Source of the DNA: a virus
IMG/VR virus record: IMGVR_UViG_3300045988_083604
Location: 1-64,000 of that record
DNA: 64,000 nt
Reading direction: 5' to 3' (one strand)
The notes below the pieces were generated by a model. That model made no database searches. It was not told where the DNA came from and was given only the letters and a program-made list of their open reading frames with translations. The position numbers and the translations under genes are program-made. Below are positions 30,653 through 64,000 of this stretch, piece after piece (positions within the stretch are counted from its first letter, which is position 1; every line of letters starts with the position of its first letter).

Positions 30653-30660
30653 TAGAAGAT

Positions 30661-33676: not shown

Positions 33677-33829
33677 CAATGGATATTATCGAAGAAGGAA
33701 AGATACGAAAAGAAATAAACGATGTTAAAAATCAAGTGTATTCTGCAGTAGCAAGTAATGACCCTAAAACAGTCATGAAGCTTATTTGTAGAATACAAGA
33801 ATTAGATCATCGATTATACGATAACAGAA

Positions 33830-34804
33830 ATGATGAATATTGATATTCCTTATTATGAGGATAAATCTCGAATAAATAATACGGCAATAGGGTGGTTTCT
33901 TAATCGGGGACCATCCTATTTTCGTAAAAAAATGTCTGGTGAAATTCCAGATGAAGAATCACGAGCTATGAGCAAAGGAACCATGATTCATATGTGGCTT
34001 TTGCAACCAGATGAGTTTAAGAAACATTATCGAGTTTCAGGTATGCAGAAACCTAAATCTCAGCAACAGGAGAAATTCTGTCAAGAGTTGGTTAATACGA
34101 CTGAAATAGAGCCTGATTTAGCTCTTCTAGACGCTTATAAGAAGGTGTATAGTATAGTTGGTAAGTCTGAAGCTAAAATGCTCTCAGAAGCGAAGGAAAT
34201 AGCCTCTACGTTGAATTCTTATATCGAATCACTTAAAGATACAGAACATACATATATTACACAGTATGATATGAAGTTGTTATGGTCTATTAAGCAGAAT
34301 ATAAACAATCATGTAGCGGCAAAACCTTTATTAGATGATCCTGATGCGCACCATGAGTTTCATATAAATTGGGATTTCCCAACAGATGACGGTCGTGCGC
34401 TATGTAAATCTCTCTTGGATAGTGTTAAGTTTGACACTGAAAAGAAAGAGTGTACAATAATGGATCTTAAGACAACTGTACATATACATAATTTTGAAAA
34501 AAGTGTAGAAGAATATGACTATTTTAGGCAATTTATGTTTTATCGTTTGGCTGCAGAATGGTATATACGAAACGAACTACACCAAGATAGTAAAGGGTGG
34601 ACATTTAGGGTCTACATAATTGCTATCGATACAGTGTCTGACAACGAAGTGAGGGTATTTGAGTTTACTCCGGAACAGCTTGAATCTCGTTTCGCTGACA
34701 TTAAGTCCGTTATATGTGATATAATGTGGTGTATTAAAACAGGTAACTGGGCACATACTCGTGATTATTATAGAAATAAAGGTATAGAATATTTGAATCT
34801 TTGA
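33830..34804 (+). CDS. PD-(D/E)XK exonuclease (RecB/YqaJ-like)
   Basis: ORF track; D...MDLKT motif region and conserved H/E upstream; by eye only. Confidence 0.5.
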   Translation: MMNIDIPYYEDKSRINNTAIGWFLNRGPSYFRKKMSGEIPDEESRAMSKGTMIHMWLLQPDEFKKHYRVSGMQKPKSQQQEKFCQELVNTTEIEPDLALLDAYKKVYSIVGKSEAKMLSEAKEIASTLNSYIESLKDTEHTYITQYDMKLLWSIKQNINNHVAAKPLLDDPDAHHEFHINWDFPTDDGRALCKSLLDSVKFDTEKKECTIMDLKTTVHIHNFEKSVEEYDYFRQFMFYRLAAEWYIRNELHQDSKGWTFRVYIIAIDTVSDNEVRVFEFTPEQLESRFADIKSVICDIMWCIKTGNWAHTRDYYRNKGIEYLNL

Positions 34805-34975
34805 ATCTAAAAATATTTTAATTATGAACAATACTAAAGATACTAAAGATACAACAGTATTAGTCGAAAATCCAATTGATAATGAATTGATTATAACAGA
34901 TCAAAATGAAGAGCTTCAGATTGGAGCAGAAGTAGATTTGGAAGAATTTTTATCATTAATTGGAATTAAATTGTA

Positions 34976-35368
34976 ATGTTTTTAAAAGACTTTGATCTAA
35001 ACAAATACAATAAAAATTTATATTTATTGAGTGATTTGTGTATATCTAATAAAAATATAATAATATCAAATGCTTTAAAAGATGTTGATATATCATATTG
35101 CGGCATAAATTCTGTATTCGTATTATATTATAATATGGATTTATTAGATATAAAGCATTTAATAAATATGAAAATAAATTTTGAAAAAGAAAAAAACATA
35201 CGTAATATATCAATTATTGGAAATGTATTACGTATTGTTTTTACAATACCTCAAAAATATATGCTTGACTATAGGTTACGTATTAAATATGGTATAAAGT
35301 ATATAAATAAAACAGCATTGCAAAAAATGATGTTATTTTGGGGAGAATATAATTATTCATTTTCATAA
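34976..35368 (+). CDS. hypothetical protein, 130 aa
   Basis: ORF track; last gene of the plus-strand block. Confidence 0.5.
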   Translation: MFLKDFDLNKYNKNLYLLSDLCISNKNIIISNALKDVDISYCGINSVFVLYYNMDLLDIKHLINMKINFEKEKNIRNISIIGNVLRIVFTIPQKYMLDYRLRIKYGIKYINKTALQKMMLFWGEYNYSFS

Positions 35369-35384: not shown

Positions 35385-35417
35385 AAACCCGAGCAGCTTA
35401 TAAAGCTGTCCGGGTTT
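35385..35417. terminator. bidirectional terminator hairpin between convergent gene blocks
   Basis: aaacccgagcagctt-ata-aagctgtccgggttt, flanked by A-tract and T-tract. Confidence 0.7.
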
Positions 35418-35421: not shown

Positions 35422-38400
35422 TTATTCTTTTTGTTTATACATTTGATTTTGTACATATTTACGTTTAGCATATGAATTATCCCATTGTTCTTTAAGGTTT
35501 TTAAAAGGTGTTAATTTCATTAACGCTCTTTCTTTTTTAGTCCAACCTTCGTATACACCAGTTTGTACAATTTCGTTATTTTCTTCACTATCACTAAAAG
35601 CACTCTTGACGTTTGAGAACATGTTCCATAGAGAATTTTCAGGAGTTTTATAACTGTTAAAACTGTCTGCGAAAACATTTAAACCATCCCAAACAGAAGT
35701 CATAGCTGTTGGTGATTTCATAGTATTAAGCATATCTGCAAATCGATATTGGTTAAACGACTCCCATCTAAATGAGATAGCTATATATGCTATAAGCTAT
35801 AGTAATTTATTATCCTTATCGTCGTCAGCTTTATGTAATAATAACGAAACTAATGGAGATATTAATAGATTATAAATCATAACTTCCGCAAAAACACGTT
35901 TAACAGCCTATCTGTTGATAGGATCTGCAAATGTTTCAGCGATTTGTGCTTTCAATCCGTGTTTTATACCACCGAAGAAAGCTTTTATTTTCTAAGACAA
36001 AGAAATATCTGAAATATTTATCGCTTCTTTATTTAAAAGTCTTATTGCTTGAATACCGTCTTTATATGGATTAATCAATAAATCAGCGACCGCTCTTATA
36101 CCACCATAAGTGTATTGCTACATTTCTAAGTTATATTGTTTTGCACCAAAATACTACTGTATAAGTGGCTGCAAATACTGTTTATGCATCATTATCGCCT
36201 ATCCAGCCATACCTGTCATAAAAGCGGCTTTTTGTGTAGGATTCATAACACCATCTGCACGAGCAGCATAATTCTATGCACGTTTCTGTATATAGAAAAA
36301 TGATTTATCAACTGCGTTTTTATATTCAGACGGTATATTGAACATATTTAACCTATTACCTGTTCTGTGCGCTTCTTTTAATACTTGTAAAAATGTTTTT
36401 CCATCTTTCCATTTTTTGAGAGCTTCTTGATATTCATCTCCGCCATCTATAGAGTTTTTATCGGCATATAATCTACGTAAATCATCTTTTGATATAAATT
36501 TACCGTCAAAAAATCTATGGGCTGCTAGAGTAGCATCTAATATAGTACCTTTTGATAAATAATCAGCTGTTGTTAGTCCGCCAAATGCCCAGTTTTCCAT
36601 AATTTGATTTACAAGAATATTTCTATCTGTATGTTTGTATTTTTTTTCAGATTGATCTGCGAGATTGAAAAGTTCCATTAGATTTTGTTGAAAAAGTCTT
36701 GAATTTTGACTAATTATTCTAGCACCAAATCTGGAATTTATTAAAGATCCCAACATTTCAGCATTAGCTACGCCCCATTCTTTTAATCCATATTCTTTCC
36801 CAGTGACTGCATTCATTATCCCAGAATAATATGCTGTAGCAAAACCAACAGTTGCAACCTTAATACTACAACCTAAGTTTATCAATGTAGTCCATGCTTT
36901 TGCATATTTAAATGGTTTATTTATATTAAAACTTCCAATTTCAGATTTGTCTTCACGTTGATCATAAAGGTTCATATTTAAAAACTTACGTGCCATCTAA
37001 TAAGTATTTGTTTCAAGTCCACTTTTTACAAATCTTGTACCTATAAATTTACGACGTGATATTAAATCTAATATCGTTTCACACTGATCTTTTATATTTG
37101 TTTTTTCTTTATACTGTTGACCTTTTGCGTAATACTGTGATATTATGCCAACTAGATCTGTACTTATCTAAGTAGGATTTTTTAATGCGGCAGTGTACGG
37201 TTGTGGAATAAAACTCAATTGATGTCCATCCGGTCTAGTTGCAGCCTATCTGTTCATATCAATATCCTTTTCTGTAGTTATAAATAATCGACCAATACGA
37301 TCTTTAAATAAAGATTTCCATTTTCCACCACGAGATCGTTTTATCATATTTTTCCAATCAGTTCCAGTTATTCCAGGAAGCTAATAATCATTTTTAAATG
37401 GTATATTAGAATATATCTCATTTGTTTCATGTATAGTATTTATTACTTCATTATACAAATTTTTTAATGTTTGGCTACTTTGTACACTCTCGTACGCTTT
37501 TGAATTATCGTAAGAGAATTTTACTCCGTTGTATATACCATTTATTTTTGGAATATACGTTTCATTTTCGTCCGGTTTGAATTTTTTATCTAAAAATGAT
37601 GATTCAGGATCTTGTTCTATATAATTATCCCCGGGCGCAACCTCAACATATTTATCATAATCTTTAGGTACTATTTTTGTATAAAACTAATAAGGTGTAA
37701 ATTTTTCAAGAATTCCACCCATACCATCGTCATACAATTTTAAAAATCCATGAGTAACAAGAAATTTTTTAACGTTTGTATTTTCATCATCTTGTATTGA
37801 TAATATACCATTTTTCGACTGTTCCTACATATCCAAACGCCGTGCTTCAGCTAACATATCCGCGAACTGCTAAGTCCATTTTATATCGTAATATTCTTTG
37901 CCTAGTTCTGATAATTTTTTGCGAATACGTTTTTTTAATGTTGTCTTACTATCTTTTAATATTTTACCATTTTCTTTTTGTAATGCTATAACTTTTTGTT
38001 TTATTAATTCTGGTAAAATATTAGCATCGACATCACCAGTATCTAATCTACGGTATGGTGCAAGCATTTTATTTATACGATCCTTGTTCTTTTTATATGT
38101 ACTGTCTCCATCCAAAAGATCTTCTATCTGTTTATCCGTAAATCCATTTTTCTCTAAAAGTTCTATTTTTGCCTTACGGATATCGTCAAATAATTTTATA
38201 GTACCATCGTCATTTAGTTTAAATTGTGTTTTACTATTACGTTCATCCCACTCGTCTAATTTTTTCCAATCGAAATTAATGTTAGAACGACCTTTTTCCA
38301 TTTCTTCTAATCCGCCACACTCAGCAATTACTTTATTTCTTAATGTTTGCCATTTATTGGTATTTCGCTTTGCTTTATTTCCATCATATAATGACTTATT

Positions 38401-40983
38401 AAGTTCTTGTAATTCTTGAGCTATTGTTAAATCATCACCTTGTTTGAGTTCACCAGTAACATCATATATATTAGCGAGCTGTCTACGCTACATATATAAA
38501 ACCTTTAATTGCTACCAAGAATCCGGATCCAGATCATCATAATTGTAAAATGTACCATCGTCCGATAAAACTTTAGATCGTATTGCGTTTATTGCAATTT
38601 GAATATCATCTCTGCGTTGTTTTGTAATATCTGATAATTGTGCAAATTTATTATAATATTCAGCATTAAATCTTCTATGACAATGTGCGCCGAGCCATTC
38701 ATTTCGTTCCATCTACCATTTAATTCGATTCTCTTTATTAGTCGGAGGAATTCTATTTCCAGGATCTAATGGCTCGTCTTTTGTACTATATTTACTATTA
38801 AGCTATTCCATAAATTTATTATAATCGCGCTTAAATTTTCCATAGTTTAAGTTTCTAACAAGATATCCTGTAGGCAACCCATTTTCATCCAATTCGTATA
38901 ACTGTTTTACACTTTCTCCAAATTTTAATGAATGCTACAACATTTGTAATTTTGCAACGCGATTATTTGTAGACATTTCTGCTGAACTTATTGCTTTGCT
39001 AACAATATATGAAAGCGCTCGTACAGCATGATCTGAACTTGCATCAGCACTTCCAAAAACTCTACCAAGCTTTGAAATATCATGTGTAGTAGATGATCCT
39101 AATTCAGAAGAAATATAATCTTCCATATCTGTTATATTTCCAGTTTCATACCCTATGTTTTCTAATCTAGCAATAACGTTTGCAGAACATATATTCTTTA
39201 ATATATTTATAGAAGTATCACATAACGATTTACATGTTTCTGTTTTTTCAATAAAATCGTTTAAAGAGGACATTAATGAAAGATTATCTGATTCATAATC
39301 TTTCATAGCTTCGTTTATACCAGGATGTGCAAAAACTCCAAGGAGTTCATCCAAAATACTTTGATACACACCAAAATAATCATGTATTTCATACATATAT
39401 TCGGCATCTGATAAAACATAAACACCATCTTTATATAATTTTTGTGCAGCATTATGAATTTTTTGTGATTCGTCAATAATATCAGGTAATACAGCATTTA
39501 ACACATAAGCTATGGAGTTTAAACTACTCATTGTATTAGACTTCAAAGAAGATATTTGAGATTCTAATCCGAGTAATATTTTATGTTTCTAATCTTCTGG
39601 CATTTTAACAACTTTTACAGCTTTTAATCTGGTTTCTAGCATTTGTATTATTTGTGGAATAATTGTATCGAAAGATTCCTATACGTCTTTTTTTAATAGC
39701 GCCTGACGTTGTTCTTTTTTCTATTTACTCTACGCCAATTTTTGCTAGTATTCTGAGTTGTTTTGTATAAATCTATTTATAACACTTGCACCTAGTGTGA
39801 AATTATATCTTTTAACAACAGGGTGTAATTTTTGTAATAATTCGTCACCTTCTAATACATTTTCAGCTATAAATTTATAAGTATCTACACTTTTTATTAA
39901 ATCTTTTAATTGTTGTTCTGATTTTATATTACCATTCACAATGGCATTTTTATTATTTATATAATTAAAAAGCTAAAGTTGGTATTTTTCAAGATTTTCC
40001 GTGTTAGACTTTTTATTGACAAGAAAATTTATAACATTTTGTACAAACGATTTTAAAGATTTTAACACAGGCTATTTATTATTATTTTTATCAAGTTGTT
40101 TTGCTTTATCAAATAATAATTGTCTGAAAGACTGATTTGTTAAAAATTCAGCTACAAATTCATATTTATCCTAAAAACCATTATATCCGTTTGTATAATC
40201 ATTCCTACTAAACCTTTCAGATGGAAATTGTTTACTATAAAGATTAAAAAGTTTTTCTGTAATTCTGTTCAGTTTTCTATCGAATATAGGAGAATCTTCA
40301 CGCAAACCTTCTGTTGTAAGAGCATGTACAACCTCATGCATTAATTTTTCAGCAGCGAATCCTGTACTTACACGTTTTAAAACTTTCGGATTTATTGATA
40401 TAATCACTCCGCCCTCATTGTCAACAAAAGTAGACATAAGGTTGTTTGAATTTTCTTCCGACATAACAATTGGAATATTATGTCTTGCTAATATTTCTGC
40501 AAACGGTTTAAATGGAGCAGCTATATACGAATCGTTAATCAGCTACTATAATAACTGTTGAGTATTGTTATTTTCCTTCAAAAAAAGATCGTTATTATCA
40601 TTTGAAAACAAATTAACCAGTGTGTCTTTAGATTCAAACGCGTCATTTTTAGGCTTATTCTATTCTGTAAAATTTACGTGCGGCTCCCCGTTCTCATCAA
40701 GTGGAATCTTAGATTTTCCTTCATACCATTTTCCGTTCCGATCGGTATACTTACTAAGATACATCGCGGCTTTTTTCTACATCGCGAGATTATAATCACC
40801 ATGATATTTTTCTAACAATTTTTGGAATAACAAAGACTCAGCCCCGTTTGGAGCTGAAGTCAATGCATATCCATTATTTCTATGCCAGACAAGATATGCC
40901 TAATCTTCTCCGACAGCTTGCACAAGGTCTTCAAACTCTTGTCTAACTTGTGCATTACTTAAATTTGGACAATATGTATTCAT
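35422..40983 (-). CDS. large virion-associated protein, 1853 codons, with N-terminal zincin HExxH motif; about 32 in-frame TAG
   Basis: Seven ORF-track fragments share one frame. I read every intervening codon and found only TAG. ATG 40983 overlaps the TGA of the upstream gene (ATGA); the stop is TAA at 35422. HEVVH lies at 40324-40338. Confidence 0.7.
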
Positions 40984-43900
40984 TTTTTACAATCATTTTT
41001 GCGCTATTCGGCCTCATCTTTATCCTACTCACTCATTTCACTTTGTTCTATCTGTGGCATACCACTTAAATCAATCCCAGTAGACTACAATAAACTAGAC
41101 AAGTCTAATTCACCACCAATTTCCGAAAGACTGGGATCATTCTTTTTCAAACCATCTTCAACTTGTAATTCTTGTGTTTCATCAGACATCTATTGTTCAT
41201 CAACAGATAATTCAGAAGGGACTTGCTTTTGCTTATCAGTTTCTTCATCTTGTTTCTATGGTTGTTCTTTACTTAAATTATTATTTGAATCCTATAGAAC
41301 CGAAGATTCAATATTATCTTTCTATAATTCTTGTTCGGATGTTACAACCTATGTTTCATCCAAAACGACAGGTCTATATGGTTCATATTCCAACCTAATA
41401 GTTTTTTTACCGAGTCGCTTGAAAAACATTTCATTTTGTTTAGATCGTTCTATATTTAACTCCTATTTAATTTCATCCTCAGTCAACGATATCTTAGTTC
41501 CCGGTCTTTGTTGTTCACCAGTTCCAACAAATGTTTCCAAATTGTTTTCTGCGAAAATCGAAACATTATCATCAGAAAAGAATTCATATTGTTTATTTTT
41601 ACCATCCTACAAACTAAGTTTATTTGTAATCATGTATACATTTTTGAACGGATATCGTGTTTCTTTTCCAGTTTCCTTATCGTAATTTACTTTATATTGT
41701 GTTCCTACTTTTTTAAACAAGAATATTTTTTTATTATTTTTACCATATTCTATTTTTATATATGGTGTATTTGCACCGCGAAAATCACTTTCTGAAGCAA
41801 TCGGAAGAGCTAAAGCTATTGGGATATTTCTAAGATTATCTAATGTATTACCACGATCAATCATTTTCACAATAAATTCACCAACTGGAGAGTATACAGA
41901 CGAACTTTTTTGTCTCCTTGTGTATGTCGGAACAATATTTTCATCTTTCCAAAAATTCTTACATAAAGTATCTAGAATATTTAAAACATTCAAAGCACCA
42001 AATTGATCAGATTCTATATCGGTACCGAGAACACTTTGTGCCATTACTTCATCAGAATTACTACCATTACGTAATGCAACTTTCATGGCATTGTCGTATA
42101 AAATTCTATATGTTGGCGGAACTAATTCAAAAAATTGATTTACACCACCGTTATTATAAGTAGTATAATAAGCATATGTTATTAAATCTCTAGCTATATT
42201 TTGTATAGCTTTCACATATGTTATATCTTGACTTAAAGTTGAACTTGTTTGCAAGCTTAACAACTCTTCAAAAGCAGACTGTAATTGTGATTTATCCTAC
42301 GAATCAATATCCATAGACGATGATGCAAGTACAATTCTGTCAACATAAGATCCAGTTTTATCTAAAATAGGATTTAAGTAATTTAAAAACTCATTTTTAA
42401 TAACTCCGTTATCATCACATAATTGCTACAACCAATCTGGTAACTGTTCGTTATTTTGTAATTTATCAAATACCAATTGTTTTAACGTCGCTTTCATTAT
42501 TGATAATCTTCTTGCTAACGATGGAGTCTTATCATTCCCGTATAACAAATCGATTACTTTTTGCCTGGTCGTGACTTCGTTACCACCAAACGTCAAATCT
42601 GGAAATTCCTAAAATCCGTCTTGGATTTGATTATAAGCAAGAAACGCACGATGCCTGAATATTGATTCCAAAGCTTTTCCAATAGCCTGAACCTAATCAT
42701 CGCTCATTACTTTTTGATAACCGAATTTAAAATCATAAATCGGTTTACCTTTTTCATCAAAACCCTTTGGAACTCTATATACAATATCTCCAAATATCGC
42801 AGCCATTGTACTATTAAATACTTTTCCAAATAATGGTGTAGCTGAAAATGATTGATTTCGTAACAATGATTTTGTCAGCTATGTTGCATTACGTAATTTT
42901 TTATCTAAAAACGTATGTTCAAAATAAGTATACATTGGAAGTTCTTTATGTTCTCTACCGTCATCAATGTAAAAATATTTATTTGCATCGTCATCGTTTT
43001 TAAAGTTGTTATAACTATTTAGGAAATTCATTTGGGATATTATATTATTTCCAAATTTTTTAGTGTCTATTCTCGAATTACTAACAAGATCTGATAATAA
43101 ATTAGCCGCTTCTGATATATCTCCAATAAACTAAAGAGATAATGCTTGGAACATACACCATCTTGCGTATTCGTATGAATTATAATTTTGTGGAGTTTTT
43201 AAATATGATTTCGCAGTTTCAAAATCAAGCAATTTCAATTCTTCGTCAGAATATAATATTTCTTTTGTTTTTGCTTCATCTTTAATTATAAATTCAGCTA
43301 CTCTGTTCGGATCGAATGTAGATTTGTCTTGTTCTATACAAGCTTTCCATTTTGTCAGTTTTTGTTTTTGTTCTTCCGAAATGTTTTCAGAACTCAACAA
43401 ATTTGAAGAAATTGTCAAAAAACTTTTTATGTATTTACGCATCAAATCTCCACGAATTTCGTTTTGCCATCTTAAAGACTTCCTTTCACGTATTTCTCTA
43501 GCATCAAAACCAAGTTTCTGTCCATACATTCCTTTACTATTAATAACCATGTTAGCCATTCTTTTCAACGCAGGTTGCGCTAAAAGTGTAAATGTAGCCA
43601 TTCCTTGCCCAGTTCTTAATAAAAAGTTAGTATATTTATAAGTAGCACTATTTACATTTAAATTTAATATATAAGGATCTTTCGCAACATCCACATGTGC
43701 GTTTACCATTGCAGAAAGCCATGCAGAAATCATATAACCGTCTTTTCCAACAACATCGTTGATATTTCCAAAATCGAAACACTTGTTTAACAATTTGTCA
43801 TTTTTACCAAACTTCATTTTTAAACCTACCGCCTGAGTCATGGCTAGATTAGTAACATTTAGTGCAAAAGGACCGATTCCGGATTTACCAGTACTATATT

Positions 43901-52900: not shown

Positions 52901-55900
52901 AATTTCCTTTCTCGCCATGTACAGAATCACCGATTCCAAAAAATGGATACCATTGATTTTTGTGTTTACCGTCTGTACCACTTGATGATTTATAAAATGG
53001 AAGTAAAACACCATTTATATTTGCAACAACAAATTCTCTACCATTTACAATACCCCATTGTCCTGTAAGTGTTCCGTTTTTTACGAGTGTATTATAAATA
53101 TCTCGAATTTTATCTAATCCTGATAACTATTCTTCCGACTCTTTGTTTTCCTTTTTACGAATTGCTTCATAAGCTTTTACAAATTCATCAGCCCATTCTT
53201 CTGAAATGTTTAGTTTTTGTTGTAAATATATTGATGGGTCTGTTGTATCATTTGTAGGTTTCTTTTTTAACAAGTCTATTGCCTTAATTAAAGCTTCACG
53301 TTTATGTTCAGCTTCGTCTTGCATCTGATCTTGTTTTTCTGCTTCTTCTATAGTAGTATTTTCACCAACATAACCTTCTACAGAAGTATTCATACTTGCA
53401 GAACCTCCTTCTACATTTTCTTCAATTAATTGATCTATTGCATCGCTGGTAATAGTTGCTTTTTCAGCTTTTCTTTTTGCCTTTTCTGTAAGTTCATCTG
53501 ATTTTTCACCATATACCTTACGTCTAGCTTCGTCTATTTGTTTTTGATGCGCATCTATGTCCTATTCAGTAACCTACTGTTTTGCAGTTTCTGTTGCCTT
53601 CTTTTGGTCTTCGTCTTGTTGAGACTGAGCCTCATTTATTATCTTTTTTTGAGCTTTTTCATCTCCATTATTAGCATTATCTAAATCCTAAATAGTTAAA
53701 GGTTCTTCCTGTTCTTTTTCTAAACGAACCATTTGTCTTCTCTAAAATCTGTCTGACATATCCTATTCTATTATAAGATGTGCAGCAGATTTTTCAAGAT
53801 TTTCAATTTGTTCTTGTTCATCAATAGGTGTGAGTGCTTTATCTGTACCTCTATTTTTATCAATATCCTCTCGCTTTTTTTTCAATTTAGAGGCTTGTAG
53901 ATTTAACAATCTATTTCGATTAATCCATTCTTTTTTGAAATCTAAACTACTCACATCTTCACCTTTAGCCTATTTTTCACGAACAAGATTGTTCTAAAAA
54001 TTAGTACGTTGTTCATCTGTAAGATTTTCCCATTTTACACGAGGTATATTAAATCTGACGTTTTTAGGATCTACAGAATTAAATGCATACGCTTGGTATT
54101 TCACAGACAATGCATGTAATATCGCATTATTTAGTGAGTTTACTGTTATTTTTTCGTTTAAATCTTCACTATTAACAATATCTTCGTATTTCTGTAATAA
54201 TTTTTTATTATTTCCTTCGTTTACAATCAATGAATATTTCTTTTCTATAGCATTAATTTGATCTTTTATGGAGTTTTTCATACCATAAAGACTTTCTATA
54301 TTTATTTTATATCCGAAAGCTTTTTTTATCGAAGAAAGTTTGTCGGATTGAGAATTTAATTTACTATATAAACCCTTTAAAATACGAAGTTTCTTTAGAT
54401 TATATAAAGTAGTAATGATCCTGTCTGCATAATCTTCCTCAGATAAATTCAAATCATTCTCAATTTTTTCTTTTTCGGTTTGTAACGGTTTTACTTTATC
54501 TTGGTATTCTTTTTCTCTAGCTTCATCTTCAGCTCGTTGTTTTTCTATTTCAGACTGTTCAGTTAATACAGGAGATGCACTTGGTTTATGATATTTAGCA
54601 TATAAATCATCGATCTACTTATTTATTTCAGAAATTCTATCATTTTTTTCAATCTTATCAGAAACATATGTTTTTTTAATTAATTCTTTAAATGATTTTA
54701 TAAGAGGTTCGTTTTCAATATTCTACGATTCACCTTCTTTATATTGTCTTACATTTCTAATTATATCATTTAAACGAGAAGTCACATCATGGTCGCTGAT
54801 ATTAGCAAGTTCTGCAACATTTTTAAAATCCAAAATCACACGAGACGCCTATTTTACATACTCTTTATGGTCTTCAGATCCTCTAGTTATGTGTAAATCA
54901 TCTAATATTTTATTTTTCTTTTTGTTAGTCTCTGTGTATACATTATAAGCAGTCCTGGCTAAAGTAATATCATCTTGTAAATCTTGATCACTTACCACTT
55001 CGTCATTTTTCAAATATTTAAAAGCTTCATACGATTTTGCAATTTTGTCCGCATTTCCACCATTTTTAAAACTATCAAAAAACATACCAAGATGAATATC
55101 ATCCTATTGTGCTTTATAATTATTAGCAACATATCGCATCAAATTCTTATCGAATTTGTATTGATTTATATATGCTCGTAACGATTCTGGGTTATTTGTA
55201 ACTGATGCTAAACCTTGATGAAGTAAACCAAACCAAAATGATGTTAAAGAACCAATTTCCATCTGTTGTCGTAAAGAATCGCTACCATTTAATGGGTCGC
55301 CAAAATCCAATCCAAAATATGCTAATACAGATTCTGTAGCAAGTTTTCCGTTGTCTACAAGTGATCTTAAATCGACACCTCTACCATAATCATAATCCGG
55401 AGAACTTTCGTCATAAACCCCTCTCCCATATCTATCTTGTAGAAATGCCTGTTGTCCTTCTTCAATACCTTCGCTAGCTGCAACAAATGCTGCTTTTTTA
55501 CCAAGACTTAATCCGGAATTTATTAAATTGCGTCTTGCAATTTGTTTTTCTATAGAACCTCCATATTTTTTAAGAACGTTGTCAATTTTTCTACTTATAA
55601 AACCTTGTGCTAATCTACGCTTTGTTTCAGATGATATACTATTTTCTGCAAATTTTGAAACAGCATCAAACATATCTTCAGATGTATATCTAAGATTTTT
55701 TTTGTATACCATATTTCTCGCAACTTTGTCAGCATAGTCTTTAATAATAGAACCTCCAGATCCGGCAAATGGTAATGCTTCTATATAGTCCATATACCCT
55801 AAAGCGTTATTTTGTGCTTTAAGTTTGTTTATACCTAACCTCGCATCTCGTTTGATTTTTTCAAAATTTGAATCACCTGTCTGGATATTATAAGAAAGTG

Positions 55901-57362
55901 CTAATTGTAACAAGTCTTGTTCATTAAGACCTTCTGTTTCAATACCATTTGATTTACAAAATTGTTTTGTAATATTCAATATCCTGCCGAGATTTATATT
56001 GTTCTTAATAGATTCATCCTGTACACGTTGTAAATAAGCGTCTGTAGCTTCTGAATTTGTTTCATCTTGACGCATTGAATAAGCTGTAGCAACAGATCCG
56101 AGTTGTGTAAGAAGTTGCACAGATAATCCGGCAACTGGATTTTTAGCAGCTAATGATTTAGATATCGCACCACCTATCCACTATAAACCTAATTGAGCCA
56201 TAAACGCTTTTGCAGAAGAAAAAGAAGATCCTATTTCAGGTAAAGAATATAATAGTGCATTTATTCCCTTTTCATTCAAATCTCGAAACGGGGAATTGGT
56301 AGAGCTTTCTTGTTCAAAATTTTTATCGATATTTTTAGGATTATAAAACCACGAACCTTTTCTATATAAATCAAGTGTACTTTTTACATTGATAGATTGT
56401 TCGTCAATATCTGGTTGCAGATCTTTTATACGTTTATCTATATCTTTTTGAAATAATTGTAATGATGCTCCGTTTAAATGTTCTAAATCATATCTTTGTA
56501 ATTTTTGTAAATCAAATTCGTTTAAAGATCCTCTGGCAATAGCGGCTCTTGTGTGTTTTTCTGAAGACGGGTTTGAAATAAAATCAAGAAAATTAGATGC
56601 TCCTTGAACTGCTTTATTGAAAAATCTTAAAATTGAATTATCTGGTTGATCTTTAGAAACATGATCTAGAGCATCGAATGCAACTTTTGCTCCTATTTCA
56701 CCAGCGTCTTTAAGGTTATCTGGAGCACTGTTATACATTAAACGTTGTAATGTTGGATTTGTTTTTATAGCTTGTTTATAATAATCAATTTGTGTCTAAA
56801 AATCACCATATTTATTTTCAATATCCCTTTGCAATAATTGTGCATTATACATATCACCATTTAATCTATACACATTTAATTTTTGCAAATCATTTTTATA
56901 TTGATCATATTTATCTATAAAGTCTCTAAATCCTTCTAGATCCGATTGTTCCTATTTTAGATTTTGTAATTCTTCTTCTTCACTACCAAGATGAGATTGT
57001 AATTGTCTCTTAACAGTTTGATTCCATGCAGACGTCCAATCAAAATTATACAAATCTGATGGTATACTTGCTACGTTTTTAACACCTTTCCATATACCAT
57101 CAGCAAGATTACCAAAAAAACTACTGTCAGAATCATTTTCAACAGTTGTATCCGAAGGTGTTATTGGCTAATAATAATCCGGACCACCTGTTTGAGAGTA
57201 TTCACTTGTAAATTCAGGATTGAAATATACACCAGAGTTTACATTCGATTTTTCCTAAACTCGCAATTCTTCTGAGGAACCTTGCCTCATACTTTGACCA
57301 ATGTTGCCATATAATGTAGCATACCTAGGATTGTATATCTATTTGTTTTTCTTTTTAGCCAT
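40980..57362 (-). CDS. giant ORF, 5460 codons, including a crAss-type virion RNA polymerase-like region (GSDFDVDKL); about 75 in-frame TAG
   Basis: 24 ORF-track fragments from 41607 to 56738 share one frame. All gaps were read codon by codon and contain only TAG. ATG 57362 is preceded by an in-frame TAATAA; the stop is TGA at 40980. DFDVD lies at 44214-44228. Confidence 0.6.
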
Positions 57363-57371
57363 AATTATTTA

Positions 57372-59276
57372 TTATTCTAAATTTTCAGATCTTGCTAAAG
57401 ATTCCGCCTGTCTTTCGCCGGCTAACTTGTATGCATTAGAAGATCCATACTGTGATTTATCATATTCTATATCACCAAATGCTTGTGAAGGATTGTCTTT
57501 TTCCGTATACGAAGTTGAAAATTTAAATAAATCTCCGTATTTCCTTTCTTTATTTTTATCTATAAACTATTTAGATGTGTCTCTAACGATTCCAAGATGT
57601 TTCATAACAGCGTTTTCAGATAAAGGATTTGAACTATTGGTGTTATAATATTTCATAAATTCAGCAAGTTTATCTTTCGTTATGTACGTATTAAAATAAT
57701 ATGTATTTACTCCAGATGTAGTGCTTCCAGCAGACCTATCTTGACGAATTGTTTCACCAGTCATGTATGCTCTAATATTATTTGATTTCAACCAATTATT
57801 AAACATCTTTTGAAGTTTTGATCCTTTTCTACCATACATACCTTTTACTTTTATTGCAGAATATGTATATTTTCCAGTACCGTAGTCAACAACTCTATGT
57901 TTTTCTGTTGTCCCAGGAATAGGTTGCCATTCATTACTAATACTGTTTTTCATTCTGGTAGCGGTTTTTCCTGCAAATTCTGCTGTTTTGGAATTTATAT
58001 ATTTCGCAGTTATTTCCGAATTACCTTTCGTCATATTATCTTTTAAATCCTAAGCATATCTAGAGCGTAATGAATTAGTAGGTAATACAGTTCCATTTTT
58101 ATCTACAGTTAGTAATGGTGTTAATCCTTTACCAGGATTGTATGGGTTTTTCGAAATAGCATTCCAATAATTTAAATATGTCTGTGCATCTTTATATTCT
58201 TTAGATCCTTTTTTACTCCTATTACGAATATTTGTCCAATATTTCGTTTTATATGATACCAATGTTGGTAACCATTTTACAATATTATCACGCTATGTAT
58301 TTGTAACTGTTCTGTTTCTTATAGACGATTCGCTAGCAGGATATACTTCTGGCGTTTCATCTTGATGCTACAAATTATGTTCAATCTATTTTAATCGAAC
58401 ACTGTAACTAAACTTTCTAGCTTCTGCAGCTCTATCATATTTATCTTTTTCCGCCAACATAGCATATGGATCCGTTTCTGGAAGCATTATCAATTTTTCA
58501 TGATGAGATTGAGCAATATCAGATATAAACTATTTGCCGACTGCTTCTTTAATCTCCTATTCTGTGGCATTTGGATATTTATTCTTAAAGCCTTCTTCTA
58601 TTAAATGTTTATAATATTTTCCAAGGTCTGTATTTGAAAATGCTTGAGCTCTAGGTTTTGCAATATTTATAAGATCATTCATATCAATACCTCTCCAAAG
58701 ATATCCGTTTTTAGAACCTTTATCTGTAGGTTTTATTTCATCATACCAATCGTTAGTAGCCTTACCCAATGTCTTATATACGCTAGGTGCTGTTCTATCC
58801 CATTGTCCATTTTTAAGTGTTGAGAAATCGTTGAAACTTGGTAAACCTGATTGTTGTAGTAAAAAATCTTCAAATTGTTGATCGTATTCACCCCTTCTTC
58901 GAGCATCTTGTATTGCTGCAAGATATTGCTAACCTATTTTAGATGATTGTCTTAACTAAGCTATATCTCCAACAGGTGTTGTTCGTATAAGCCTTGCAAC
59001 GGCTGCTCTACCTTCAGCTGACCGTAATGGATCTATACCTCTTTTTTGTAAATCGTCTAATAAATTATTCATTCTTCCATATACAAGTCTATCATAATCC
59101 TTCACATCTTGTTGAAAAGGAGATGTAAAATCACTGTATTTAGACAGATATTCATCCATTCTTTTTTCTCCGGATTCATATTGATCTTTTACAGCATTTA
59201 AATAAGCATTCATAATACCAGTATCATATAATTCTGGAACAGGCATGTCTACTGGCTAATCATATCTATATATCAT
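57372..59276 (-). CDS. late protein, 634 codons, about 10 in-frame TAG
   Basis: Fragments 57567..59246 share one frame. ATG 59276 lies 5 nt after the TAA of the upstream gene; the gene ends in a double TAA at 57369-57374. Confidence 0.6.
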
Positions 59277-59281
59277 AATAA

Positions 59282-61435
59282 TTATTGTTTATACGGATTA
59301 ATAAATGGAATTGGTTGAGGAATATTTACTAATGACTTAGTTAAATCCATAAGGCTTGGTGATACTGGCTTATACGGATTTGTAAAAGTTACATTTTGAG
59401 GAATAGGTACCAATGATTTAACAAGATTCATAAAGTTCGGCTAGAATGGTTTATATGGATTTTTAAAATCAACGTTTCGAGGAACAGGTACTAATAATTT
59501 AGCAAGGTTCATAAAATCTTTATTATTTGGTACGGATGTAGATGTGTCGCCAAACAATCTATTAATTCGATTTTTACGCCCTGTTTTACCCATTAAATCC
59601 TCACGTCTTATACCCAGGTCATCTTGATATAATTTAACAGTATCACGCCATCTACTATCATCTACGCGTTTCTTATCCCATCTGTAGATATTCTCCATAA
59701 AATCTTTTCTAGCTTGGTTAGCCATTGCTAATTTAGCAGCATGTGCTTTTTCAAACGCATCTTGGTCGTATCTCATAGCATTTGTTCTATTCTCTCTATC
59801 AGCTTCACCTGCACGCATTAAAGCATCGTAATATTGCTGTTTATATTTATTATTCTATTCATCAGCTATTCCATAAAGCTTTGCAGCATTATTTATATAA
59901 CTATTATAAAGATCATTTCTCGCAATATATTTCTAACCTGCAGTAAGACCTCCTGTTTGGTCTATATTATATTTATTCTATCTAAGACTATCTCTATACT
60001 CTTTAAGTTGAGGATATATGTTATATCTAAGACCAGCTAAACCATTTAATGCTCTATTAGCGTATTGATTTTGACTATATGTATCATACTTAGGAATACT
60101 TTGTTTATTGACATTTGACAATCTAGAAAGTGCTTCTGTAACTCCTAAAAGTGACGGAAGTCCAATCTGAAGTTCATTCTACCAATCTTTGCCAATCGCA
60201 TATTGTCTTCTATAATTATTCATTTGTCCTTCTATATTATGTTGTTTTGCCTATTGTTGTGCGAGATCTTTAAGCTTATTAAAAGATTCTTGTTTTGACT
60301 GTTGTATATTTTTATTATACAAATCACTTGTAGCTTTAGATAAAGAACTCAATTTACCATATCGTCCAACTTTGTTCTAAGCTTTATTCATACTTTGAAT
60401 TTGCATAGTATACGGTGCAGCTTGCCTTGCGAACGTATCACCAGTTCTCCAATCAACATCATTACCAAGTATTACATTACTATCATCTTCTCTTACAGAC
60501 GATGGTTGATTATCAACACCAACTGTACCTTTGTCAACAATAGTTGCACTACCGTTGTTGAAATCTATAATAGATTCTCCTTTACCAACGTTGCTTTCGT
60601 GCGGTCCATTTATAACACCGTACGGAGAATATACTTGTTTGTAATCATCTTCGGATTTACCATTATTATAATACTTAGAATCTTTTCCTCTATTTGCTAC
60701 TAATATTCCATCTTTAGTATTTCCATAATCCTACAAATAATCCTATTGTAATCCTGTGGTTTGAGCACCTGCTTTATTAAACGTAGTGATAGCATTTGCT
60801 TTCTGTTGTGCAACAGCCATTCTATGTTTTAAGATCCTTTTCTTACGTGCAGCAGAAGCTCCTCCGAATATACCTCCTATAAGAGTTCCTACAGCAGCTC
60901 CAATACCGGAGCCAAGTGGACCGCCTATCATACCTATCGCAGCACCTGCTCCAGCACCACCTCCAATAGCTTTCATTGTGTTTCCAGATGTTTGAGCTTT
61001 AAGGTTTGCAAGTTCTGTATCTTCGTCAATACCATTTTGAATATCATAACCAATTCCATTTATCATACCTTGTGAGGTACCTGCATTCGATAACAATTGT
61101 GATTGATTTGCAACAGGTTGTTTATAAGCATCTATAAGATTTCCTGCAAAAGCGATACCTTGTTGTACCATCGCACCGTAGTTGGCATTTTTAAGATTTG
61201 TTTTAAAAGCACTAGGACCTTTTGGAACGTTTTCTTGAGGACCTTTAGGAGTTTGAGGAGTTTGTTGAGCGGGTGTTTGGTTAAAATTTTGGTTTTGCGG
61301 AAGAGTTTTCTAATAGTCTAAAAATTCTTTAGCATCATCAGCAGGACCATTATAAGAATTCCAATCTAGAGGATTTTTACCGACATCAAAGCTTGGTCTC
61401 TAATTACGTATATATTTAAAAGCTGTTAAATCCAT
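59282..61435 (-). CDS. late protein, 717 codons, with a Gly-zipper hydrophobic segment and a C-terminal 27-aa triple repeat; about 11 in-frame TAG
   Basis: Fragments 59441..59818 and 60743..61171 share one frame with only TAG between them. GGGAGAGAAIGMIGGPLGSGIGAAVGTLIGGIFGG segment; TAA at 59282. Confidence 0.6.
59285..59530 (-). repeat. three tandem 81-nt (27-codon) repeats at the 3' end of the gene
   Basis: tatacggatt / tatacggatt / tatatggatt at 59290, 59371 and 59452; peptide units end in NPYKP(F/V/Q). Confidence 0.7.
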
Positions 61436-64000
61436 GATTTTCTAAATTTATTTATTATATAAGAAATCGAAGTGTTCTTTAAATTATCTATCTCACAAAT
61501 CATATATTTACCACGTTGTCTATTTCCATATTCAACGTTTCCATATCTTGGTATAGAATATCTAAAATTACCTTCTCTGTTTGTAATACCAATTTCACTT
61601 CCAGATTTCTATACTTCTGAATTTAAATTTGTAGACCATTTAAATATACAGTCGTTATAAGAATAATCTTTTGTTAATTGATCGTTTGTTATTATCTCTT
61701 GATTATCAAATACTTTTGTTTCAGTAGGTGATGTATTTACTACATATTTTATAATAGTATTTGGATATAATGTACTATTTTTAGTATTCCATTTGTTTAT
61801 AACTAATCTATTGTCTTCACAAGACATCAAGTATATATCATTGTCGAATGTAATACTTTCTTCGAAATCAACTGTATATACAGATGTAAACGCTCTTAAT
61901 AAACTACTAAATGCTAAAGATTGTTCTTCTCCATTCTTTAACAATACTTTTGAAACAAGTTCATCATAACGTTTATCATAGAATAATTTTGGTTGTTTTA
62001 TACCACACCTTTCATGCATTATATTTTGTGTACCGAACATCTTATTCATCGCAACGCTACCATCTGATGTCAACTATTTCAATTCGTTGTTATGCGAATC
62101 AAACCAGAATAGAGCTGTAGAAGATTGAGCATCACAATATTGTTCTCTATGCATTCCTGTTTTTGTATCCAAATAATCATATCTTGATAAAACACCTCCG
62201 GTTCCTAATACAAGTGGTTTTCCAGAATCATCTGTTATCTGAGATCTTTCATTCACGCTAAATTGACCAAATGCGTGTTCCTACCAAAAGAATAACTAAT
62301 TATTAAAGGTTCTAAGGTTTGTTATTTCACCATATCTGTCATCTACATCTAAGAAGTTTGCAGGTTTGAATACACACCACGAATCACTATTTTCATTATT
62401 AGTCTTCTTATCTGAGTAATAACATCTGTAATCTACGCTTGTGAGTGTATTTGAATCTTTTGATAAATCTGTAGATTCTGTTGATTTAATTTGAGGTTGT
62501 ATAGAATATGCAGAATTGTACTCATATTGTGGTTTTTCCTAAGTCCATATTGAATTAACTTGTGCAGGATCTTCTTGTATATTGGAAGCTTTACCATCTG
62601 TCTATGCACTAAACTCTACTCCCGATGTATATGCAAGATTTATGCTTGTTTCAACAGGTATTGAATAAACAAGACACGCAGTTACAGACATTCCTACATT
62701 CTTATCATAATATTTATGACATGATACATATTCAAACGGTTGTATGTAACAATCACCATTAAACACATTTGCTACTTTCTAATCTGCTGCAAATACATCT
62801 CCATAAGATACATATGTATTCAAACATCTTGCTGAATAATCATATCCTCCATAAGGTGTTGTTCTTTGACGTAGATTACACAAATATGTTCCAGATATAC
62901 TACTTCTGTATATATTTATTTTAGTTATTTTATAAGTATCATAGATATAATCTACATATGCACTATTGTCTTTTGATTCTACGGATTGATTTGATTTGTA
63001 TATTATGTTACCATCTTCTTTTGCACCAGGTATTACTTCAAAATCACCTGTTGTAAACCCGTTTGGAATTTTATAATCATTATCTGTAAACCCAGCAGCC
63101 TATACTGTAAGTGTGTTCGTATGAGGTTTTTGTATAACGTTTGTACAAATATTTTTATAAAATATATTGTTTGCGTTTTCTAATTTCAACAAGATACAAG
63201 ACCCTCCAGTACCCATTAAAGCAGATCTTCCGTCACAATCATCGAGTCTATTACGATATTTATCATCAGATACAAATATACCAAAAGCATTATCAGTACT
63301 CAGTACTTTATTAGTATTATTAAACGTACCGCTGTCTACAACATTACAGTATTGTAAATTGCCAACTACAACCGTATCGTTTGTATATTTTGCAGAATAT
63401 GTTGTAGTCTTATTTGCGGTTTTAGAATCAAACAAACCATTCCACGGTATTTGTGAAACAACATTACAAGCCTATACTTTATAAGAGCGTTTATTTTTAT
63501 TCAAATCAATAGTTTCGTAATCTGTATCATTTCCGTATTTTGTTTTAACAAGTGATGATCCATATATTCTATTAAATACGATATTACTTTGTTCATACAG
63601 TTTAGTGTATCCAAATTGATTATAATTGTATATATTATCAAGACCATCAGCGCTTCCAAATCCACGTACATAACATGTATTGTCTATATCACCTATTGTT
63701 TGATATGACATAAATGATGGTGCTTTACCAACTGTCCTAAAAACATATTGAGCACCTCTATATTTATCAAGTCTATGTTCGTTTAAACAAGCAGGGTACG
63801 CCTAATAATATGAAGGATTTGTTCTACCGTATGGTTGACATATAAACATTGACTATAGACCACTTATCGGCTTCTTTTTATTACTATTCTCGTCATCAGA
63901 TTCATATACTATATATGTAGATAATTTGTATTCTATTTTATTAGTTAATCGACCATATAAATCTTTATATATGATTTCATTATTATATATAGGGTTATTA
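61426..64000 (-). CDS. late protein, partial (5' end beyond the window), more than 857 codons, about 11 in-frame TAG
   Basis: Fragments 61609..63711 share one frame with only TAG between them. TAA at 61426 overlaps the start of the next gene by 10 nt. Confidence 0.6.

What the first reader, a model, noticed from the sequence alone, without database searches (positions are those of the whole stretch)
35422..64000. The whole late-gene block is translatable only if TAG is a sense codon
The minus strand from 64000 down to 35422 appears in the ORF track as about 40 short fragments in only three frames.

I read every gap between fragments codon by codon. Every interruption is TAG (cta on the plus strand), about 140 in total.

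In-frame TAA or TGA occurs at only five places, and each is a plausible gene end:
- TGA at 40980, overlapping ATG 40983 (ATGA).
- TAATAA at 57369-57374, followed by ATG 57362.
- TAA at 59282, followed by ATG 59276.
- TAA at 61426, overlapping ATG 61435.
- TAA at 35422, followed by the terminator hairpin.

The roughly 40 plus-strand early genes contain no internal TAG, with two exceptions reported separately.

TAG-to-Gln recoding (translation table 15) restricted to late genes has been reported in crAss-like and other gut phages. The phenomenon is therefore known, but this window is a very clean case of it. The amino acid identity (Gln) is inferred, not shown.
Basis: partly seen in the sequence, partly recalled or inferred. 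Interest (0 to 1): 0.8.

Follow-up and report, generated by a model that had tools for sequence, protein, structure and literature searches.

The report
Amber-recoded late genes, crAss-like phage
The late genes of this crAss-like gut phage read the TAG stop codon as an amino acid (very probably glutamine), which is a known phenomenon, but the phage's own TAG-reading tRNA gene sits just outside the window and is split by a self-splicing intron that hides it from standard tRNA finders.

Summary
On the minus strand of 35422-64000 there are 140 in-frame TAGs. TAA and TGA occur only at the five gene ends. With TAG as sense the region becomes five ORFs, of 1853, 5460, 634 and 717 aa plus an 857-aa partial.

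- The window is 64 kb of a 99-kb crAss-like phage contig (Suoliviridae-like).
- Standard-code relatives encode the same proteins as uninterrupted ORFs.
- The giant ORF contains the virion RNA polymerase, and a TAG lies 5 codons before its catalytic motif.
- In relatives that are 85-95% identical, TAG pairs with CAA or CAG in 11 of 16 informative codon comparisons.

TAG-to-Gln recoding of late genes in crAss-like phages is published and has been validated by proteomics. The finding itself is therefore a new member of a known kind.

One thing is added. No tRNA(CUA) exists in the window. On the parent contig, 523-783 nt beyond window position 1, a tRNA(CUA) gene sits at the head of the late unit. 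It is interrupted between anticodon positions 35 and 36 by a 189-nt group-I-like intron. A 94%-identical phage has the exact empty site, and homologous introns occur in other crAss-like phages and in Lak megaphages. I found no published description of an intron-split suppressor.

The parts
61426..63999 (-). 3' part (857 codons, open at the window edge) of a virion structural protein gene. It has 11 in-frame TAGs and ends in TAA at 61426-61428.
   Evidence: PHROG 28748 'virion structural protein', E = 1.8e-61. Syntenic with cr7_1 gp28.
59282..61435 (-). 717-aa protein with a glycine-zipper stretch. It has 11 in-frame TAGs, plus one more 3 codons upstream of the ATG, and ends in TAA at 59282.
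   Evidence: Weak PHROG hits. Same position as the cr7_1 'peptidoglycan-associated/glycine zipper' gene plus gp30.
57372..59276 (-). 634-aa protein with 10 in-frame TAGs. It ends in TAATAA, in the same frame as the next gene.
   Evidence: Orthologues of 560-751 aa occur in all relatives.
40980..57362 (-). Giant 5460-aa gene with 75 in-frame TAGs. It contains the crAss-type virion RNA polymerase domain (TGSDFDVDK motif). Its TGA overlaps the next ATG (ATGA).
   Evidence: Match to PDB 6VR4, the phi14:2 gp66 RNA polymerase, E = 2.9e-24. It is a single CDS in cr7_1 (16332 nt) and a single uninterrupted ORF in the standard-code relatives.
44238..44240 (-). Example TAG codon lying 5 codons before the catalytic DFDVD aspartates of the polymerase. 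It pairs with CAA in the 85%-identical relative and with Lys in phi14:2 gp66.
35422..40983 (-). 1853-aa last gene of the late block, with 32 in-frame TAGs. It ends in TAA at 35422.
   Evidence: Orthologues of 1206-1949 aa occur in relatives.
35385..35417 (.). Hairpin between the converging late and early blocks, a probable bidirectional terminator.
   Evidence: -18.7 kcal/mol, z = -4.7. Sequence shown.
1602..35368 (+). Early/replication block readable in the standard code: ThyX, DnaB-type helicase, primase, AAA ATPases, PDDEXK nuclease and a sigma-70-like factor. No release factor, tRNA synthetase or amidotransferase was found.
524..1317 (-). First two small ORFs of the leftward transcription unit, with no in-frame TAG. 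The unit continues beyond window position 1 to the intron-containing tRNA(CUA). That gene lies at L068 11841-12101, 523-783 nt beyond position 1, and is followed by dUTPase and then TAG-rich packaging genes.
7922..7993 (+). tRNA-Gln with anticodon UUG. It is an ordinary CAA reader, not the suppressor. Its D and T arms resemble those of the suppressor.
29490..30167 (+). HNH endonuclease ORF inside the early block with an in-frame TAG at 29604-29606. It is the exception to the otherwise TAG-free early genes.

Best explanation
The window is 64 kb of a roughly 99-kb crAss-like phage (Crassvirales, nearest to Suoliviridae/Oafivirinae). The phage uses two reading conventions.

**Early block.** The rightward early/replication genes can be read with the host's standard code.

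**Late block.** The long leftward unit needs UAG to be read as an amino acid, very probably glutamine (translation table 15). TAA and TGA remain its only stops. The unit covers packaging genes, the virion structural proteins, the giant RNA-polymerase-containing protein and the last 1853-aa protein.

**Decoding agent (inferred).** It is a phage tRNA with anticodon CUA, derived from tRNA-Gln. It lies at the head of the late unit, 523-783 nt outside the window, next to dUTPase. This is the same position as the intron-less tRNA(CUA) of cr7_1.

**The intron.** In this phage the gene is interrupted between anticodon nucleotides U35 and A36 by a 189-nt group-I-type intron. The suppressor can form only after the intron is spliced out.

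**Expected consequence (inferred).** Before the spliced suppressor accumulates, late messages terminate at the first UAG. Afterwards full-length proteins are made. This is the timing model proposed in the literature for such phages.

**Shown here:**
- the codon pattern;
- the continuity of the genes;
- the Gln preference at TAG-aligned codons;
- the tRNA gene, its exact intron boundaries and its conserved fold.

**Inferred:** splicing, charging with Gln by the host enzyme, and the timing role.
For: **Codon pattern**
- 140 in-frame TAGs and no internal TAA or TGA in 9537 codons.
- The longest TAA/TGA-free run is 5462 codons; the maximum in shuffles was 190.
- Coding density is 99.4% under table 15 and 53.7% under table 11.

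**Real genes**
- Gene order matches cr7_1.
- Standard-code relatives have uninterrupted orthologues.
- The polymerase core matches PDB 6VR4, and a TAG lies inside it.

**Gln**
- 11 of 16 informative codon pairs in relatives 85-95% identical are CAA or CAG. CAA differs from TAG at two positions, so synonymy explains the pairing and mutational proximity does not.
- Gln is the commonest partner in 40%-identical relatives: 17 of the aligned TAGs against a 4% background.
- Gln ranks first in a BLOSUM likelihood test.

**Parent contig**
- ENA ERZ1690186 NODE_42 (99111 nt) shows 0 mismatches over 11317 nt of overlap with the window.

**Suppressor tRNA**
- ARAGORN in intron mode calls tRNA(cta) with a 189-nt intron at position 35/36.
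- A 93-95%-identical phage (L083) lacks exactly L068 11876-12064. Its tRNA equals the predicted spliced product.
- The 5' exon ends in U, paired to G in a 6-bp P1 helix, and the intron ends in G.
- The Rfam group I model aligns end to end, E = 1.6e-4.
- On four homologues, 94.2% of cells are paired and 16 pairs show compensatory change. No shuffle out of 500 reached this, and slid controls gave 35-44%.
- All in-silico spliced homologues are called tRNA(cta).
- cr7_1 has a single tRNA(CUA), at the same position.
- Genes downstream of the tRNA carry 22 and 21 TAGs. The small genes upstream mostly carry none.

**Literature**
- Code 15 in late genes of crAss-like phages (PMC7886860; 10.1101/2021.08.26.457843), with peptide proof (PMC9523058).
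Against: - There is no peptide or RNA evidence for this phage.
- Against distant relatives Gln is only marginally ahead of Glu and Lys. Three of the 16 close comparisons are Lys.
- The suppressor gene is outside the window. Its splicing is not shown.
- The Rfam group I score (26.6 bits) is below the gathering score of 50.
- The covariation rests on four sequences, and I drew the structure from one of them.
- About 26 kb of the parent contig was not seen, so a second, intact tRNA(CUA) cannot be excluded.
- The D-arm shared with Bacteroidales tRNA-Gln also occurs in tRNA-His and tRNA-Arg of other phyla. tRNA identity is therefore only suggestive.
- How host release factor 1 is outcompeted is unknown. 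No release factor gene was found in the window.
Confidence: 0.85

Rival explanations
1. TAG is read through, but not by the intron-containing tRNA. That gene would be a dead remnant. Suppression would come from another phage tRNA(CUA) in the unseen 26 kb of the genome, from a host suppressor, or from near-cognate reading by tRNA-Gln.
For: - The contig was only partly inspected.
- Published surveys report many recoded phages with no detectable suppressor (10.1101/2021.08.26.457843; PMC7886860).
- The phage also encodes tRNA-Gln(UUG) and an odd tRNA-like gene at 6703-6780.
Against: - Exons and intron are conserved with compensatory changes in three crAss-like phages and in Lak phages. A decaying pseudogene would not show this.
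- The fully scanned relative cr7_1 has only one tRNA(CUA), at the same position.
- Near-cognate reading by anticodon UUG would also read through TAA, which is the main true stop here.
Confidence: 0.1
2. TAG encodes an amino acid other than glutamine, for example lysine or glutamate.
For: - Lys pairs with TAG in 3 of 16 close codon comparisons, Glu in 1 and Ser in 1.
- Glu and Lys score close to Gln against distant relatives.
Against: - Gln accounts for 11 of 16 close pairs, against a background of about 4%.
- Lys and Glu are the usual substitutes for Gln, and control Gln codons gave the same ranking (Q, E, K).
- A bona fide tRNA-Gln(UUG) (L089) carries the same 17-nt 5' sequence that defines the suppressor family. 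Bacteroidales tRNA-Gln(UUG) (L106, L173) share its D arm and A73.
- Peptide evidence for Gln exists in other crAss-like phages (PMC9523058).
Confidence: 0.04
3. The TAGs are true stops. The block would then be about 145 small genes, decayed pseudogenes or an assembly artefact.
For: Under table 11, 39 ORFs of at least 60 aa can be called in the block.
Against: - Every fragment continues in the same frame, with no TAA or TGA for up to 5462 codons.
- Standard-code relatives have single ORFs across the same positions.
- A TAG lies inside the polymerase catalytic core.
- The same pattern recurs in independent assemblies.
Confidence: 0.01

Closest known systems
TAG-to-Gln (table 15) recoding of late genes in crAss-like phages (Yutin et al. 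2021, PMC7886860; Borges et al., 10.1101/2021.08.26.457843; Peters et al. 2022, PMC9523058)
   Same: - In-frame TAG only in the late/structural block, with TAA and TGA as stops.
- Early genes readable in the standard code.
- A phage tRNA(CUA) of tRNA-Gln type.
- Low G+C (32%).
   Different: - Here the suppressor gene carries a group-I-type intron inside the anticodon. Default ARAGORN and the Rfam tRNA model both miss it.
- None of the papers I read describes this.
Uncultured phage cr7_1 (Burzaovirus coli, Suoliviridae, NC_055895.1)
   Same: - Same gene order, including a 5443-aa giant gene and a 1945-aa last gene.
- Same TAG recoding.
- tRNA(CUA) next to dUTPase at the head of the late unit.
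- A tmRNA-like gene in the early block.
   Different: - Only 51% amino-acid identity in the polymerase core and about 36% overall.
- Its tRNA(CUA) has no intron.
Lak megaphages of Prevotella (Devoto et al. 2019, PMC6784885)
   Same: - TAG recoding.
- tRNA genes with 'enigmatic' introns.
- Lak-B1, B3, B6 and B9 carry a tRNA(CUA) split at the same position by a 245-nt homologue of this intron.
   Different: - Unrelated 540-kb phages that also encode release factor 2.
- The paper lists introns in tRNA-Tyr, Phe, Gly and Thr, not in the suppressor. It does not class them as group I.
Group I introns in bacterial tRNA anticodon loops (cyanobacterial/plastid tRNA-Leu(UAA), Azoarcus tRNA-Ile). This comparison is from my own knowledge.
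   Same: A small ORF-less self-splicing intron inside the anticodon loop, with a P1 helix built from the 5' half of the anticodon stem-loop.
   Different: - The host gene is a phage suppressor tRNA.
- The insertion is between positions 35 and 36.
- Related phages carry larger introns with an HNH endonuclease gene at the same site.

Membership tests
Phage stop-codon recoding, translation table 15 (TAG = Gln) | In-frame TAG inside conserved genes whose orthologues elsewhere are uninterrupted | tested here: met
   140 TAGs in five genes. The orthologues in cr10_1, cr118_1 and cr50_1 are uninterrupted.
Phage stop-codon recoding, translation table 15 (TAG = Gln) | TAA and TGA remain stops, and TAG is not used as a stop in the recoded block | tested here: met
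   The five gene ends are TAA (four) and TGA (one). There is no internal TAA or TGA.
Phage stop-codon recoding, translation table 15 (TAG = Gln) | TAG-aligned positions prefer Gln | tested here: met
   11 of 16 informative codon pairs in relatives 85-95% identical. Gln is the top partner in 40%-identical relatives. It leads only marginally against the most distant ones.
Phage stop-codon recoding, translation table 15 (TAG = Gln) | Phage-encoded suppressor tRNA with anticodon CUA | tested here: met
   None in the window. It is present on the parent contig 523-783 nt beyond position 1 and is interrupted by a 189-nt intron.
Phage stop-codon recoding, translation table 15 (TAG = Gln) | Recoding confined to late/structural genes, with early genes readable in the standard code | tested here: met
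   The 42 early ORFs tabulated (called under table 11, 7853 codons) include full-length replication domains. The one exception is the HNH endonuclease ORF.
Phage stop-codon recoding, translation table 15 (TAG = Gln) | Peptides spanning TAG positions carry Gln | not testable with these tools
   Shown for two other crAss-like phages in PMC9523058, not for this one.
Crassvirales (Suoliviridae-like) | Giant virion protein with the crAss-type RNA polymerase (two-barrel fold, DxDxD motif) | tested here: met
   Match to PDB 6VR4, E = 2.9e-24, with TGSDFDVDK aligned to TGSDFDIDK.
Crassvirales (Suoliviridae-like) | Conserved order of late genes and of the converging replication block | tested here: met
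   Same order as cr7_1, cr53_1, cr60_1, cr113_1, cr118_1 and cr50_1.
Crassvirales (Suoliviridae-like) | Placement by capsid, portal and terminase phylogeny | not tested
   Those genes lie outside the window.
Group I self-splicing intron | 5' exon ends in U paired with G in P1, and the intron ends in G | tested here: met
   GGCUCU pairs with GGAGCU, with U.G at the splice site, and the last intron base is G. The pairing is invariant in four homologues.
Group I self-splicing intron | Conserved catalytic core (P3-P8 with P7) | tested here: inconclusive
   The Rfam RF00028 match is full length, but at 26.6 bits it is below the gathering score of 50. My P1-P9 model has 94.2% of cells paired and 16 compensatory pairs on four sequences. 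The larger introns of L085 and L087 gave no Rfam hit.
Group I self-splicing intron | Precise presence/absence polymorphism at the insertion site | tested here: met
   L083 is 93-95% identical and lacks exactly L068 11876-12064.
Group I self-splicing intron | Self-splicing with guanosine in vitro | not testable with these tools
   Needs an experiment.
tRNA-Gln identity of the suppressor | Sequence features shared with host-clade tRNA-Gln | tested here: inconclusive
   The D arm, U1 and A73 are shared with Bacteroidales and Hallella tRNA-Gln(UUG). The same D arm also occurs in tRNA-His and tRNA-Arg of other phyla.

The most novel reading that the evidence does not exclude
Intron-split suppressor tRNAs may be a recurrent and overlooked feature of TAG-recoded gut phages.

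- **Recurrence.** The tRNA(CUA) family shared by crAss-like and Lak phages is repeatedly invaded at anticodon position 35/36. The invaders are group I introns: ORF-less forms of 189 and 245 nt, and forms of about 975 nt that carry an HNH endonuclease gene.
- **Consequence for surveys.** This would explain part of the 'recoded phage without a detectable suppressor' problem. Published surveys detect TAG suppressors in only about 40% of recoded genomes.
- **Stronger form.** Splicing of the intron gates the switch from the standard code to the alternative code. RNA self-splicing would then be a checkpoint for late-gene translation.
Probability: 0.3. Interest if true: 0.75.

Novelty: new member of a known kind. 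Interest (0 to 1): 0.45.

Why it matters
The recoding itself matters mainly for annotation. Under the standard code this phage's 63-kb late unit breaks into dozens of meaningless fragments, and its 5460-aa polymerase protein disappears.

The intron-split suppressor matters more.
- Several papers leave open why many TAG-recoded phages lack a detectable suppressor tRNA.
- A tRNA(CUA) gene hidden by an intron in the anticodon is a concrete answer for at least some of them, and it can be tested.
- It adds an RNA-processing step that could influence when the code switch happens.
- The same intron occurs in crAss-like and Lak phages. This points to exchange of the code-change gene between unrelated phages, possibly within shared Prevotella/Segatella hosts.

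Tried and rejected
- **Megablast** of the giant gene against GenBank phages found no match.
- **PHROGs** on four late proteins gave only one informative hit.
- **Residue tabulation and BLOSUM likelihood** against relatives 30-50% identical put Gln first but barely ahead of Glu and Lys. I replaced these with codon-level comparison to closer relatives.
- **tRNA-Gln(UUG) at 7922-7993 as the suppressor:** rejected, because the anticodon loop reads UUUUGGC.
- **The odd tRNA-like gene at 6703-6780 as the suppressor:** there is no CUA in its anticodon region.
- **A genome-wide scan for the suppressor's D-arm pattern,** meant to prove Gln identity, was not specific. It mostly hit tRNA-His of CPR (candidate phyla radiation) bacteria.
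- **Rfam on the 972-983-nt introns** of L085 and L087 gave no group I hit.
- **A degenerate-codon pattern** meant to fetch the giant gene of the 94%-identical relative returned only distant phages.
As a result about 26 kb of the contig stayed unseen.
- **The simple terminator scan** missed the hairpin at 35385-35417. Folding confirmed it.

Full report
**1. The observation**

I scanned the window stop-to-stop under four codes.
- With TAG as sense, the minus strand of 35422-63999 becomes five ORFs: 35422-40986 (1855 codons), 40980-57368 (5463), 57372-59288 (639), 59282-61447 (722) and 61426-63999 (858, open at the edge).
- Making TGA or TAA sense gives nothing comparable.
- In these frames there are 140 TAGs and no TAA or TGA except at the ends. 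The off-frames hold 500 and 1085 TAA+TGA.
- The longest TAA/TGA-free run is 5462 codons. In 200 shuffles the mean was 117 and the maximum 190.
- Coverage by ORFs of at least 60 aa is 53.7% under table 11 (39 ORFs), 57.2% under table 4 and 99.4% under table 15.
- The hairpin after TAA 35422 folds at -18.7 kcal/mol, z = -4.7.

**2. What the genes are**

- A 641-aa stretch of the giant ORF finds 100 crAss-like phage records by tblastn. The best is cr7_1 (Suoliviridae, Oafivirinae) at 51% identity.
- The same stretch matches the solved phi14:2 gp66 RNA polymerase (6VR4, E = 2.9e-24). TGSDFDVDK aligns to the catalytic TGSDFDIDK, and a TAG lies 5 codons upstream.
- cr7_1 has the same gene order, with a 16332-nt single CDS and a 5838-nt last gene.
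- Three family members (cr10_1, cr118_1, cr50_1) use the standard code. Their five orthologues are uninterrupted, including giant ORFs of 4461, 4949 and 4775 aa.
- The 5460-aa ORF is therefore one real gene. It is not a string of same-frame genes.
- Five other relatives show the same TAG-only interruption.

**3. Which amino acid**

- Against relatives 30-50% identical, Gln is enriched two- to four-fold at TAG columns. It ranks first in a BLOSUM likelihood test, but Glu and Lys are close.
- Closer relatives decide the question.
  - In L042 (85% identical over 521 codons), window TAGs pair with CAA/CAG 6 times, AAA 2 times and TAG 2 times. Its own TAGs pair with window CAA 3 times, AAA once and GAA once.
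  - In L083 (94.7% nucleotide identity) the changes are TAG/CAG, CAA/TAG and TAG/TCG.
- In total 11 of 16 informative pairs are Gln, against a background of about 4%.
- The commonest partner, CAA, differs from TAG at two bases. This fits synonymy and does not fit mutational neighbourhood.
- Relatives 40% identical (L043, L044) also give Gln as the top partner.
- Peptide proof of TAG = Gln exists for other crAss-like phages (PMC9523058).

**4. The decoding agent**

*What the window holds.*
- It contains tRNA-Gln(UUG) at 7922-7993 and an aberrant tRNA-like gene at 6703-6780. It contains no tRNA(CUA), even at permissive thresholds.
- Pfam finds no release factor, tRNA synthetase or amidotransferase among 45 ORFs: 43 from the early block and the two small leftward ORFs.

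*Where relatives keep the suppressor.* cr7_1 carries one tRNA(CUA), next to dUTPase at the head of the leftward unit.

*The parent contig.*
- I recovered it through an exact protein look-up. It is ENA ERZ1690186 NODE_42, 99111 nt, with 0 mismatches over 11317 nt of overlap. The window corresponds to record positions 18462-82461.
- The intergenic space before dUTPase holds both halves of a cr7_1-like tRNA, separated by 189 nt.
- ARAGORN in intron mode calls tRNA(cta) with the intron at position 35/36.

*Evidence for a group I intron.*
- The 5' exon ends in U, paired to G in a 6-bp P1 helix (GGCUCU/GGAGCU).
- The intron ends in G.
- The Rfam group I model aligns over its full length. At 26.6 bits (E = 1.6e-4 in a 1-kb search) it is below the gathering score.

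**5. Independent support for the intron**

- A scan of IMG/VR for the 5' exon found 21 loci. Most are intron-less tRNA(CUA).
- L083 is 93-95% identical to the parent contig. Its alignment breaks exactly at L068 11875|12065, and its tRNA equals my predicted spliced product.
- L085 and L087 carry 983- and 972-nt introns at the same site, each with an HNH endonuclease ORF.
- The 189-nt intron recurs in two other crAss-like contigs, L091 and L093.
- A 245-nt homologue splits the same tRNA in Lak-B1, B3, B6 and B9 and in three IMG/VR contigs.
- On the four distinct sequences, my model (tRNA arms plus P1-P9.1) has 94.2% of cells paired and 16 pairs with compensatory change. No shuffle out of 500 reached this, and slid controls gave 35-44%. 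The caveat is that there are few sequences and I drew the structure from one of them.
- All in-silico spliced versions are called tRNA(cta).

**6. Layout**

- On the parent contig the leftward unit starts with small ORFs that mostly lack TAG. The tRNA gene follows.
- Next come dUTPase (one TAG, 8 codons before its TAA) and a 172-aa gene.
- Then come a 1201-aa intein-containing protein with 22 TAGs and an 826-aa protein with 21 TAGs.
- If the genome is circular, the recoded unit runs about 63 kb and ends at window 35422.

**7. Literature**

- Recoding of late genes with TAG = Gln is well described (PMC7886860; 10.1101/2021.08.26.457843).
- The same papers, plus PMC12386605 and a 2026 preprint (10.64898/2026.08.21.746148), note that suppressors are often undetectable.
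- Devoto et al. (PMC6784885) reported 'enigmatic' tRNA introns in Lak phages, but not in the suppressor.
- Four full-text searches found no description of an intron-split suppressor tRNA. This is absence of evidence within the library I could search.

**8. Verdict**

- The phenomenon is known, and this phage is a new, divergent member.
- The intron in the suppressor gene is the one feature that may be new. It lies outside the window, and its splicing is inferred.

Noticed in passing
window 19350-21400: About 2 kb in the early block has no ORF of at least 80 aa on either strand under any single stop reassignment. Patches of it are nevertheless 74-81% identical at the DNA level to cr130_1, cr131_1, Dulem virus 42, cr7_1 (also an annotation gap there), cr124_1 and others. 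The late proteins compared for cr7_1 and Dulem virus 42 are only about 32-36% identical to those of this phage. It is a candidate conserved noncoding RNA or DNA element.
   Followed up: partly
window 14634-14809 (+): Rfam permuted tmRNA match above the gathering score (63 bits against 47). cr7_1 has an annotated tmRNA with a tag peptide at the equivalent place in its early block. A phage tmRNA in a stop-codon-recoding phage may be worth a look.
   Followed up: partly
window 6287-6341, 12148-12212, 7771-7835, 8979-9056 (+): Sub-threshold but low-E-value Rfam matches in intergenic parts of the early block. There are two twister-P1-like matches (E about 1e-6 to 1e-7), a hammerhead-like match and a RAGATH-12-like match.
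   Followed up: no
window 6703-6780 (+): A tRNA-like gene (Rfam tRNA, 39.7 bits) has normal acceptor, D and T arms but an over-long anticodon arm. ARAGORN calls it only in relaxed mode, with contradictory anticodons. No CUA is present.
   Followed up: partly
window 29490-30167 (+): An HNH homing-endonuclease ORF in the early block has an in-frame TAG at 29604-29606. This would delay its translation until the suppressor is available.
   Followed up: partly
window 3593-3814, 7404-7715, 15348-15782, 22009-22536 (+): Four early ORFs end in TAG. With the suppressor present they would be extended by about 5 to 32 codons of unconvincing sequence. TAG seems to serve as a genuine stop in a few early genes.
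   Followed up: partly
L068 13258-16863 (parent contig, outside the window): A 1201-aa late protein has Hint/intein and LAGLIDADG domains. The 94%-identical relative L083 lacks L068 14100-15190, an intein-free allele.
   Followed up: partly
L068 11730-11780 (parent contig, outside the window): Just upstream of the suppressor tRNA there is a short element with a perfect T arm (CUCGGGUUCGAUUCCCGA) inside a stem. It could be a tRNA-like minihelix.
   Followed up: no
L090 (Lak-B1, MK250020.1 412033-412353): Lak-B1, B3, B6 and B9 carry the intron-split tRNA(CUA). The published tRNA table, as far as the flattened text can be read, lists 72-nt Sup-CTA genes near this position for only some of the baboon genomes. 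This suggests the split copies went undetected there.
   Followed up: partly
L005 (Bohxovirus 'endotrachealis', PV686213.1): Its late block is not restored to long ORFs by any single stop reassignment, unlike all other relatives. The cause may be frameshift errors or a double reassignment.
   Followed up: no
L083 and L010 compared with the window: A phage 93-95% identical in the tRNA, dUTPase and packaging region exists. However, no giant polymerase gene more than about 60% identical was found in the same collection. This suggests strong mosaicism or fast evolution of that gene.
   Followed up: partly
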